Positions 2,557 to 4,019 of a DNA stretch of 5,474 nt are shown here, piece after piece. This stretch comes from a virus. Its lineage: Duplodnaviria; Heunggongvirae; Uroviricota; Caudoviricetes. The stretch lies in the IMG/VR virus record IMGVR_UViG_2660238346_000015; one strand, written 5' to 3'. The position numbers were made by a program, and so were the translations under genes. Positions within the stretch are counted from its first letter, which is position 1; the number at the start of each line of letters is the position of its first letter. The notes beneath the pieces are model-generated. The model worked only from the letters and a program-made list of their open reading frames with translations, ran no database searches and was not told where the DNA came from.

Positions 2557-2591
2557 CAGTACTCCCTCAGCCAGTTTGCGCTCGGTGGTTT

Positions 2592-4019
2592 TTATGGCCC
2601 CGCCAGCTTCCAGCCCTGGCTTATCCCCACCACAATTCCGTCGGGGATCCCGGCTTCCGCCAGTGAATCCAGAATCTGCCCCACACCTGACGGGTCAATA
2701 CCGATATGGTCCAGTAACTCAGCCTCATGAATACGACGCACATACTCCGCCACTTCCGCCGTGTCATCCCCGACCCGACGGACAATCGTCATGTCTCCAC
2801 AGGCCACAAAATCCTGAAAACGGGATGCCTCACTCTTCCGTCTGACCACCGCGGTTTCATGCGCCCAGGCATGGCCCCAGCCCAGCCATTCGCGGGTTTC
2901 CCTGTCACGGCCAATCACGTACATTCCCAGCAGATCATCCAGGCCCCCGCCGTCAATCCCCACCGTCACCACATCAGCGCGCTGCAGGATATCGTCCAGG
3001 CTGACGCGCCTGCCCTGCTGCTCCCAGAAATCCGCACCCGCCCAGCGGTCAGAACGCAGGGCAAGACCAATTTCCACATTGGCATGTTTTGACATGAACC
3101 CCCGGAATGTCTCTTCACCGGCTTCCCGGGCTTTACGGTACTCCCGGTACAGAAAAGCCTCATCCACCGAATAACCGAGATTCGGATTGACCATGGCGAG
3201 GTTTTCCATCAGCAGGTGAGCCCCGCTTTCCACCATTTCAGGAGGGTGTTCAAATATCACCGGCAGAAAGTGCGGATCATGAATTTTGCCGTCACGGACA
3301 TCCCGGGCGTACTGCAGTTTCTGTCTGAACACCCCGGCTGGCGGCTCATTCGACTGGGTGGTCGTATACACCACAAACCCTTCCGGGCGGGAGGCAAGGC
3401 CGCCTATGGCTTCACGTAACATGTCCTCCGCTTTGTACTGCTTGCCAAATAACCACAGTTCATCAATCAGCGTCCCCACGGACTTGATACCGGATACCGT
3501 ATTCGGATCGGCAGCCACCACCTTAAGGGTGGTGTCCGTCACCCTGTGGGTGATGGTCCGGATATGTGTCTGCACCTGACAGAGGTCATCCAGATCATCG
3601 TCCCGTCGTACCATATCCCGGGCAGGGTTGAAGGCGTTGGCCGCCACCTCCACAGTCGGGGCCAGAATCGTGTAACCCGCCGCCTGCCGCCAGTTCAGTA
3701 ACAGTGCAGTCATCATGATCCCGGCAGCCAGCGTGGACTTCGAGTTTTTCTTGGGGATAAGGATAAACACTTCCTTGATATGGCGAACACCGGTCTGCGC
3801 ATCGTAGGAGCCAAACAGGGCCGCCACCAGGTCAAACACCCACGGTGCACAGGACTCCCCGAATGTCGGGCTACCCGGTGCATCCACAATTCGCAGTTGT
3901 TTAAAAATCGCCAGGGCATGTGCGGCCTCGTCCGGATAAATCGGATCCGGAATAATCGACAGCCCCTTTTTCAGGCGCTCTGCCCAGTCCGGGCAGGCTG
4001 TGCTCCATACAGGTATCAT
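2592..4019 (-). CDS. terminase large subunit (ATPase domain and most of the nuclease domain), ending prematurely at TAA 2594-2592
   Basis: 475-aa ORF with a deviant Walker A (LIPKKNSKST), Walker B (LIDELW) and nuclease-domain motifs (VTVGIDGGG, IGIDPSG). ATG at 4019-4017 overlaps the TerS stop as ATGA (4016-4019), indicating translational coupling. The true C-terminus continues in the -1 frame at 2359-2556. Confidence 0.88.
   Translation of the reverse strand: MIPVWSTACPDWAERLKKGLSIIPDPIYPDEAAHALAIFKQLRIVDAPGSPTFGESCAPWVFDLVAALFGSYDAQTGVRHIKEVFILIPKKNSKSTLAAGIMMTALLLNWRQAAGYTILAPTVEVAANAFNPARDMVRRDDDLDDLCQVQTHIRTITHRVTDTTLKVVAADPNTVSGIKSVGTLIDELWLFGKQYKAEDMLREAIGGLASRPEGFVVYTTTQSNEPPAGVFRQKLQYARDVRDGKIHDPHFLPVIFEHPPEMVESGAHLLMENLAMVNPNLGYSVDEAFLYREYRKAREAGEETFRGFMSKHANVEIGLALRSDRWAGADFWEQQGRRVSLDDILQRADVVTVGIDGGGLDDLLGMYVIGRDRETREWLGWGHAWAHETAVVRRKSEASRFQDFVACGDMTIVRRVGDDTAEVAEYVRRIHEAELLDHIGIDPSGVGQILDSLAEAGIPDGIVVGISQGWKLAGP

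What the first reader, a model, noticed from the sequence alone, without database searches (positions are those of the whole stretch)
2585..2607. Large terminase split by a 1-nt frameshift in a C4/G4 homopolymer: pseudogene or homopolymer sequencing error
Seen directly: the 475-aa TerL frame ends ...GISQGWKLAGP then TAA (2594-2592), while the -1 frame continues ...AIKTTERKLAEGVLVHGDQPLMAWCV... into the conserved TerL C-terminus. Adding one base to the C run at 2598-2601 would give a continuous ...QGWKLAGAIKTTERKLAEG... protein of about 555 aa. Inference: either the terminase is inactivated, which fits the IS insertion nearby and suggests a decaying element, or this is a homopolymer length error in the assembly. 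The site is not a canonical slippery heptamer.
Basis: seen in the sequence. Interest (0 to 1): 0.5.

Follow-up and report, generated by a model that had tools for sequence, protein, structure and literature searches.

The report
Prophage terminase broken by one-base deletion
The DNA-packaging enzyme gene (large terminase) of an E. coli-type lambdoid prophage carries a real, inherited one-base deletion that cuts off the last 81 amino acids; this is ordinary prophage decay, not an assembly error or a programmed frameshift.

Summary
The split is real. On the minus strand the TerL ORF (4019-2592, 475 aa) stops at TAA 2594-2592, and the -1 frame continues to 2359 with the conserved end of the nuclease domain.

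The missing base is not in the C4 run (2598-2601). Intact homologues read GGCCCCGCCCAGC where the window reads GGCCCCGCCAGC. So one C was lost from a CCC run, now CC at 2603-2604. Repair gives 553 aa with ...WKLGGAIKTT..., not about 555 aa with ...WKLAGAIKTT....

The same deletion is in at least 14 independently assembled contigs forming two haplotypes. These are eight NCBI isolate assemblies identical to the window, plus six contigs from SRA runs, an ENA metagenome and another NCBI assembly. It is absent from about 2,900 copies in 5,426 complete E. coli genomes, from 80 IMG/VR contigs and from JGI metagenomes. A reproducible, haplotype-linked change is an inherited mutation, not a homopolymer miscall.

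The truncated product lacks the Asp that aligns with catalytic D471 of HK97 TerL. There is no slippery heptamer and no unusual downstream RNA structure.

An ISCro1-like IS66 element ends at 184. It interrupts the small ORF between the capsid and portal genes.

Verdict: a frameshift pseudogene in a decaying Stx-phage-like prophage. Known kind, low interest.

The parts
2592..4019 (-). TerL 5' ORF, 475 aa: native residues 1-472, then A-G-P and TAA (2594-2592). It holds the ATPase domain and the first two thirds of the nuclease domain.
   Evidence: PF03354, residues 63-224; colinear with the intact 553-aa TerL apart from one gap
2603..2604 (-). Site of the 1-nt deletion: CC here, CCC in intact alleles (coding strand CTGGGCGGGGCC to CTGGCGGGGCC; nt 1416 of the CDS, codon 473).
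2359..2601 (-). TerL 3' remnant in the -1 frame (native residues 474-553, stop at 2361-2359). It encodes the end of the nuclease domain, including D525, which aligns with catalytic D471 of HK97 TerL. Gene callers report only its last 65 codons (2556-2359, GTG start).
   Evidence: (PF20441, positions 221-280 of 286)
4016..4579 (-). Small terminase (TerS), 187 aa, intact; its stop overlaps the TerL start (ATGA).
   Evidence: same length as in L001 and BP-4795
4870..5235 (-). HNH endonuclease, 121 aa, intact. It is the usual partner of HK97-type cos terminases.
358..2295 (-). Prohead protease / major capsid protein fusion, 645 aa, intact.
185..313 (-). First 43 codons of the 73-aa ORF that lies between the capsid and portal genes, cut off by the IS.
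   Evidence: (homology to L001 starts at window 185 = L001 1886; the gene is L001 1793-2014)
1..184 (+). Right end of an ISCro1-like IS66-family insertion sequence: transposase C-terminus at 9-155, terminal ...CGCTTAC at 178-184. The contig ends inside the IS.
   Evidence: 100% identity to annotated ISCro1-family copies

Best explanation
The window is the packaging and head module of a long-tailed lambdoid, Stx-converting-phage-like prophage of the E. coli group. The gene order is HNH, TerS, TerL, protease-capsid fusion. The window is contig CCCD01000302.1 of assembly GCA_000939215.1.

Its large terminase gene suffered a genuine single-base deletion in a G3 run of the coding strand, at codon 473. 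Translation runs three codons out of frame and stops. The product has 472 native residues plus AGP and lacks the last 81 residues.

The missing segment carries the end of the RNase-H-like nuclease domain. It includes the Asp equivalent to catalytic D471 of HK97 TerL and the preceding stretch that aligns with HK97 K463. The product should therefore be unable to cut concatemeric DNA at cos (inferred). The prophage should be unable to package its own DNA unless a co-resident related prophage supplies terminase (inferred).

The mutation arose once in an ancestor of two closely related prophage haplotypes and has been inherited since. In the window's lineage an IS66-family element was later inserted between the capsid and portal genes. 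This is ordinary stepwise prophage decay.
For: Shown:
- The single gap against the intact 553-aa TerL lies in the CCC run.
- The deletion allele is identical in L003-L010 (eight NCBI assemblies, TerL region 100% identical to the window). It is also in L012, L013, L014, L017, L019 and L020 (an ENA metagenome, another NCBI assembly and four SRA runs). That second haplotype differs at 3 TerL SNPs and 29 of 5,291 positions overall.
- A 44-nt probe centred on the deletion finds nothing in 5,426 complete E. coli genomes. The intact motif is present about 2,900 times in 1,243 of them.
- All 80 IMG/VR contigs returned carry the intact G. The deletion allele is absent from IMG/VR and from JGI metagenomes.
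- The G3-repaired proteins of both haplotypes exist as intact 553-aa proteins elsewhere. So the frameshift is the only coding lesion.
- The repaired protein aligns with HK97 TerL (6Z6D) over residues 84-534, straight across the site. Pfam TerL_nuclease (276-535) is detected only after repair.
- The HK97 catalytic residues are D302, D388 and D471 (PMC9410871).
- The IS66 end at 184 interrupts the 73-aa ORF.
- Other lesions occur in the same TerL family: Q468* (CAG to TAG) in L015 and L018 and an IS629 insertion in Stx2a_F349.
- Genomes that carry this TerL family hold a median of 2 and up to 7 copies, which relaxes selection on any one copy.
Against: - No raw reads could be inspected for this assembly.
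- Loss of function is inferred from alignment, not measured.
- Apart from the frameshift the coding sequence is perfectly preserved. In haplotype B the surrounding 20 kb of late genes shows no other obviously broken gene call. So the lesion is either recent or tolerated.
- The mapping of HK97 D471 onto D525 assumes a 10-residue tag offset in chain 6z6d_A. That assumption is consistent for both K463 and D471 but was not checked independently.
Confidence: 0.9

Rival explanations
1. Assembly or sequencing error: the genome really has the intact gene, and one base was dropped from a short homopolymer during sequencing or assembly.
For: The lesion lies in a G/C-rich stretch of short runs (CCCC G CC). 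The window is a short draft contig. A true homopolymer nearby (C9 at 4853-4861) does vary between assemblies.
Against: - The same deletion is in at least 14 contigs from different projects and assemblers, and in two haplotypes.
- It is strictly linked to those haplotypes. It is never seen among about 2,900 intact copies of the same motif in complete genomes or in 80 IMG/VR contigs.
- A 3-nt run is not error-prone on the short-read platforms these scaffolded drafts suggest (NN joins); the platform is inferred.
- The TerL site is invariant in contigs whose C9 tract differs.
Confidence: 0.03
2. Recoding: a -1 ribosomal slip of tRNA-Gly on G GGG (GCG GGG CCA UAA) restores the frame and yields full-length TerL with one substitution (...LAGAIK...). 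The gene would then still work, by a programmed mechanism or at a low leaky level.
For: The -1 codon under the P-site GGG is also GGG, so re-pairing would be perfect (sequence). The rest of the ORF is undamaged and identical to intact proteins. The allele has persisted through some divergence.
Against: - It is not an X XXY YYZ heptamer, and the A-site codon CCA cannot re-pair on GCC.
- The downstream 113 nt fold no better than shuffles (z = +1.1; 177 of 200 shuffles fold at least as well).
- There is no Rfam hit.
- The frameshift is a rare derived state. All other sampled homologues, including the functional phage BP-4795, are in frame.
- The flanking sequence is the same as in in-frame alleles, so nothing has evolved to stimulate slipping.
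Confidence: 0.04
3. The short form is the functional product. Either this is a genuinely shorter or two-piece terminase, or the truncated TerL (ATPase plus crippled nuclease) is kept as a dominant-negative inhibitor of packaging by related superinfecting phages.
For: The ATPase domain and the N-terminal TerS-overlapping start are intact. A second, independent truncation eight codons upstream (Q468*) exists in another haplotype.
Against: - The apparent clustering of truncations is an ascertainment effect. Those loci were retrieved by exact match to the 65-aa downstream ORF, which is only called as a separate gene when the lesion lies just upstream of it.
- No homologue ends here naturally. HK97 TerL and Pfam TerL_nuclease run through the site.
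- The allele is rare.
- The window's copy has gone on to acquire an IS insertion.
Confidence: 0.02

Closest known systems
Intact TerL of long-tailed lambdoid Stx-converting phages and prophages of EHEC, for example phage BP-4795 ORF55 (YP_001449292.1, 553 aa) and E. coli WP_001457603.1
   Same: 96-97.7% nucleotide identity. Same gene order: HNH, TerS, TerL, 645-aa protease-capsid fusion, 73-aa ORF, portal. Same start overlap with TerS.
   Different: Those genes are one 1,662-nt ORF. The window lacks one G at nt 1416 and so encodes 475 aa plus an out-of-frame remnant.
HK97 large terminase (PDB 6Z6D; Fung et al. 2022, PMC9410871)
   Same: Same family (PF03354 ATPase plus PF20441 RNase-H-like nuclease) and an HNH-assisted cos-type module. 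The repaired protein aligns over residues 84-534 (E = 4.6e-10). The GKID motif matches the GRID motif that holds catalytic D471.
   Different: It is only a distant relative. In the window the third catalytic Asp and the preceding stretch are encoded out of frame.
Other inactivated TerL genes in the same prophage family: IS629-split TerL of Stx2a_F349 (AP012530) and the Q468* allele in L015 and L018
   Same: The same gene in the same prophage family, disabled by a single event in an otherwise recognisable late operon.
   Different: The type of lesion differs (IS insertion or nonsense codon against a 1-nt deletion), and the origins are independent.
Programmed -1 frameshifts of phage genes, for example the lambda G/GT tail chaperone on G GGA AAG (from general knowledge)
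   Same: Two overlapping frames joined by a -1 shift inside a phage late operon.
   Different: There is no canonical heptamer, no conservation of the shift among homologues and no stimulatory structure. The shifted state is the rare derived allele.

Membership tests
Large terminase, HK97-like (Pfam TerL_ATPase PF03354 plus TerL_nuclease PF20441) | N-terminal packaging ATPase domain | tested here: met
   PF03354, residues 63-224, 45.1 bits against a cut-off of 23.7
Large terminase, HK97-like (Pfam TerL_ATPase PF03354 plus TerL_nuclease PF20441) | Complete RNase-H-like nuclease domain in the same polypeptide | tested here: not met
   The 475-aa ORF gives no PF20441 hit. The remnant alone matches profile positions 221-280. 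The domain (276-535) is detected only in the repaired 553-aa sequence.
Large terminase, HK97-like (Pfam TerL_ATPase PF03354 plus TerL_nuclease PF20441) | Third catalytic Asp (HK97 D471) present in the product | tested here: not met
   D525 of the repaired protein aligns with the GRID Asp of 6Z6D (residues from PMC9410871). It lies downstream of the frameshift.
Frameshift pseudogene in a defective prophage | Indel is derived relative to intact orthologues | tested here: met
   One gap against the intact 553-aa TerL. There is no match to the deletion allele in 5,426 complete E. coli genomes, and all 80 IMG/VR contigs are intact.
Frameshift pseudogene in a defective prophage | Lesion reproducible in independent isolates or assemblies, so inherited and not an artefact | tested here: met
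   At least 14 contigs in two haplotypes, from NCBI, ENA and Logan sources
Frameshift pseudogene in a defective prophage | Other signs of decay in the same element | tested here: met
   An ISCro1-like IS66 insertion truncates the 73-aa ORF 39 nt upstream of the portal start. This was seen only in the window's haplotype.
Frameshift pseudogene in a defective prophage | Loss of packaging function | not testable with these tools
   Needs induction and packaging assays or an in vitro cos-cleavage assay
Programmed -1 ribosomal frameshift site | Slippery heptamer X XXY YYZ at the overlap | tested here: not met
   The overlap is only GCG GGG CCA TAA. G GGG CCA does not fit the pattern.
Programmed -1 ribosomal frameshift site | Downstream stimulatory RNA structure | tested here: not met
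   MFE -38.7 kcal/mol against a shuffle mean of -42.7; z = +1.12. No Rfam family matches.
Programmed -1 ribosomal frameshift site | Frameshifted arrangement conserved among homologues | tested here: not met
   Homologues are in frame
Homopolymer-length assembly error | Not reproducible across independent data sets; located in a long homopolymer | tested here: not met
   The change is reproducible. It lies in a 3-nt run, not the C4 run. The C9 tract at 4853-4861 varies between the same contigs while the TerL site does not.

The most novel reading that the evidence does not exclude
The frameshifted terminase is not dead. Either low-level -1 slippage of tRNA-Gly on G GGG makes enough full-length TerL (...LAGAIK...) to keep the prophage viable, or the 475-aa nuclease-deficient TerL is retained because it poisons packaging by related superinfecting lambdoid phages. 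This would explain why the rest of the ORF is unblemished and why the allele persisted across two haplotypes. In one of them the neighbouring late genes look intact.
Probability: 0.04. Interest if true: 0.5.

Novelty: already known. Interest (0 to 1): 0.08.

Why it matters
It matters mainly for annotation. The gene should be labelled a terminase large-subunit pseudogene (frameshift at codon 473), not two genes and not an assembly error. The prophage should be scored as packaging-defective unless another prophage helps it.

The result is one more example of how EHEC-type lambdoid prophages are disabled by single small lesions in essential late genes while staying otherwise intact. This fits the view that such prophages persist as a pool of partly defective, mutually complementing elements. 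It opens no new question.

Tried and rejected
Rejected: the alignment puts the gap in the CCC run, and the ...LAGAIK... protein does not exist in a collection of 15 billion proteins, whereas ...LGGAIK... does.
- Finding the window or the deletion allele in complete E. coli genomes. The best TerL identity is 97.7% and there are no carriers. Neither haplotype is in that set, so the host lineage could not be named. A literature search for the assembly accession found nothing.
- Scan of GTDB species-representative genomes for either allele: no match.
- Scans of IMG/VR and JGI metagenomes for the deletion allele: none.
- Odd flanks in L005 (nlpD and the rpoS start joined to mid-terS) and in L003. 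I first took these for rearrangements or IS events. They contain N or NN at the junction and are scaffold joins, so I discarded them.
- Apparent clustering of independent TerL lesions around codons 468-485. Rejected as a hotspot: the loci were retrieved through the exact 65-aa downstream ORF, which selects for lesions just upstream of it.
- A dN/dS test of constraint after the frameshift. This is not feasible: haplotypes A and B differ at only 3 TerL sites, none downstream of the lesion.
- A literature search for frameshifted terminases in O157 defective prophages returned nothing relevant.

Full report
**What is in the window.** All genes of interest lie on the minus strand:
- an HNH endonuclease (5235-4870, 121 aa);
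- a small terminase (4579-4016, 187 aa);
- a large-terminase ORF (4019-2592, 475 aa, Pfam TerL_ATPase);
- a prohead-protease / major-capsid fusion (2295-358, 645 aa).

At the left end, bases 1-184 are the right end of an IS66-family element. The transposase C-terminus is at 9-155 and the terminal ...CGCTTAC is at 178-184. This stretch is 100% identical to copies annotated as ISCro1-family. The window is contig CCCD01000302.1 of assembly GCA_000939215.1 (L004).

The closest relatives are lambdoid prophages of EHEC-type E. coli and Stx-converting phages such as BP-4795, phage 2851 and Stx2a_WGPS8. They share 96-97.7% identity and the same gene order.

**Checking the observation.** The 475-aa frame ends ...GISQGWKLAGP at TAA 2594-2592. 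The -1 frame continues ...AIKTTERKLAEGVLVHGDQPLMAWCV... to a stop at 2361-2359. That remnant matches positions 221-280 of the 286-position Pfam TerL_nuclease profile. The split is therefore real.

In the alignment with the intact gene of NZ_CP027472 (553 aa, WP_001457603.1), the only gap is ...GGCCCCG-CCAGC... against ...GGCCCCGCCCAGC.... This is nt 1416 of the CDS. One C of a CCC run was lost, leaving CC at 2603-2604. On the coding strand, CTG GGC GGG GCC became CTG GCG GGG CCA TAA. The C4 run at 2598-2601 has its ancestral length.

Repair gives 553 aa with ...WKLGGAIKTT.... This exact protein exists intact in public data, as does the equivalent for the sister haplotype.

**Error or mutation.** An exact-sequence look-up found the same 475-aa product on eight contigs from eight different NCBI assemblies (L003-L010). 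Their TerL region is 100% identical to the window at the DNA level. Outside TerL they differ from one another at a few SNPs and in the length of a C9/C10 tract.

A look-up of the 65-aa downstream ORF brought in a second haplotype with the identical deletion: L012, L013, L014, L017, L019 and L020. These come from an ENA metagenome, another NCBI assembly and four SRA runs. This haplotype differs from the window at 3 TerL sites and at 29 of 5,291 aligned positions.

The deletion allele is otherwise absent:
- A 44-nt probe centred on the deletion, which cannot seed on intact alleles, finds nothing in 5,426 complete E. coli genomes.
- The intact motif occurs about 2,900 times in 1,243 of those genomes.
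- All 80 IMG/VR contigs returned for a two-allele pattern carry the intact G.
- An allele-specific pattern finds nothing in IMG/VR or in JGI metagenomes.

The change is reproducible across projects and assemblers. It is confined to two related haplotypes and never appears when the same motif is sequenced elsewhere. That is the behaviour of an inherited mutation, not a miscall. As an internal control, the real homopolymer at 4853-4861 varies from C8 to C10 between these contigs, even within haplotype A, while the TerL site never varies among carriers. I could not inspect reads, so a small residual doubt remains.

**What the lesion does (inferred).** The repaired protein aligns with the solved HK97 large terminase (6Z6D) over residues 84-534, straight through the frameshift site.

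Fung et al. (PMC9410871) give D302, D388 and D471 as the catalytic centre of the HK97 nuclease, with K463 reaching into the active site after the auxiliary hairpin. Assuming a 10-residue tag offset in the deposited chain fits both K463 and D471. Under that assumption D471 is the Asp of GRID, which aligns with D525 in GKID of the repaired protein.

The 475-aa product ends at native residue 472. It therefore lacks this Asp and the preceding stretch that aligns with HK97 K463. It should retain the ATPase but be unable to cut cos DNA. That blocks autonomous packaging.

Genomes that carry this terminase family hold a median of 2 and up to 7 copies. Complementation in trans by a sister prophage is therefore plausible, and this redundancy explains how such a lesion can persist.

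**Is it programmed?** The overlap between the frames is only GCG GGG CCA TAA. A P-site tRNA-Gly could re-pair perfectly one base back (G GGG). However, the sequence is not an X XXY YYZ heptamer, and the A-site CCA cannot re-pair. The 113 nt downstream fold no better than shuffled controls (z = +1.12). Rfam finds nothing in the window.

The frameshifted state is the rare derived one. The functional phage BP-4795 and every other sampled homologue are in frame. The flanks are unchanged from in-frame alleles, so nothing has evolved to promote slipping. Leaky slippage at a very low level cannot be excluded computationally.

**History of the element.** In haplotype B the small 73-aa ORF and the portal gene follow the capsid gene without an IS. 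The 20 kb around TerL shows no other obviously broken gene call. In the window, homology to these loci stops at base 185, where the IS66 end begins. This leaves only the first 43 codons of the 73-aa ORF, 39 nt upstream of where the portal gene would start. The TerL deletion is therefore the older lesion, and the IS insertion is a later step in the window's lineage.

Other members of the family have been disabled in other ways: a CAG-to-TAG nonsense codon at Q468 in L015 and L018, and an IS629 insertion in Stx2a_F349. The apparent clustering of lesions near codons 468-485 comes from how those loci were retrieved. The 65-aa ORF is called as a separate gene only when the break lies just upstream of it.

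**Comparison with known things, and verdict.** This is a member of the HK97-like large-terminase family that fails the test for a complete nuclease domain because of a frameshift. In other words, it is a terminase pseudogene. It meets none of the three criteria I tested for a programmed frameshift site. It also does not behave like an assembly artefact.

Frameshifted or IS-split late genes in EHEC-type lambdoid prophages are commonplace (from general knowledge; examples). Its value is for annotation.

**Dead ends.**
- The host lineage could not be named. No complete E. coli genome carries either haplotype (best identity 97.7%). The species-representative scan was empty, and the accession is not in the literature library.
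- The odd flanks in L003 and L005 are scaffold joins containing N.
- A selection test after the frameshift is not possible with only three differences between carriers.

Noticed in passing
window 4853-4861: A poly-C tract (C9 here) lies 9 nt downstream of the HNH stop, in the HNH-terS spacer. Its length varies from C8 to C10 among related loci, and between C9 and C10 within the otherwise identical haplotype A contigs. It could be a truly unstable tract or a sequencing-prone one. It is the real homopolymer-length variable of this window.
   Followed up: partly
window 4654-4777: There are five copies of the motif (C/T)(A/G)GTTAACAT, four of them exact CAGTTAACAT, in both orientations, in the spacer upstream of terS. 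With up to 2 mismatches the whole window gives 11 matches against 2.8 expected, and 0 of 200 shuffles reach that number. They are probably small-terminase recognition repeats of the cos region (inference).
   Followed up: partly
window 1-184 and 185-313: The right end of an ISCro1-like IS66-family element is inserted in the 73-aa ORF between the capsid and portal genes, 39 nt upstream of the portal start. The contig ends inside the IS, so it is unknown whether the portal and tail genes still follow. Haplotype B loci lack this insertion.
   Followed up: yes
L012 12411-14996; L023 (BP-4795) 1101-3847; L001 1-1847; L022 8628-10888: The portal gene of this prophage family has a G5/G6 run near codon 452 (GTTCAGGGGG[G]ATAC). 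G5 is found in the functional phage BP-4795, L001 and L022. It gives a 454-aa portal plus an overlapping second ORF of 299-461 aa, and RefSeq flags it as 'frameshifted' in L001 and L002. G6 in L012 fuses them into one 861-aa ORF. The 3' part also holds repeats of about 162 nt in variable number. This may be a recoding or slippage site and looks more interesting than the TerL lesion. It lies outside the window.
   Followed up: partly
L015 3407-3409; L018 2794-2796: A different haplotype of the same TerL (about 93% identity to the intact L001 TerL CDS) has an independent nonsense mutation, Q468* (CAG to TAG), eight codons upstream of the window's stop. It was seen on 7 contigs from SRA runs.
   Followed up: yes
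window 2419-2566 versus 2631-3084: Compared with the intact L022 allele, 11 synonymous differences cluster in the last 150 nt of TerL, and only 2 fall in the 450 nt upstream of the deletion. L001 is much closer over that 3' segment. This suggests a recombination breakpoint near the lesion, as expected for mosaic lambdoid late regions.
   Followed up: no
L005 1-912; L003 5357-5786: These contigs appear to join nlpD and the rpoS start to mid-terS (L005), or unrelated DNA to mid-capsid (L003). The junctions contain NN or N, so they are scaffolder joins, not biology.
   Followed up: yes
L021 and L022 versus window 2359-4019: TerL is under very strong purifying selection. L021 differs from the window at about 60 nucleotide positions in the gene, yet it encodes exactly the repaired protein.
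   Followed up: partly
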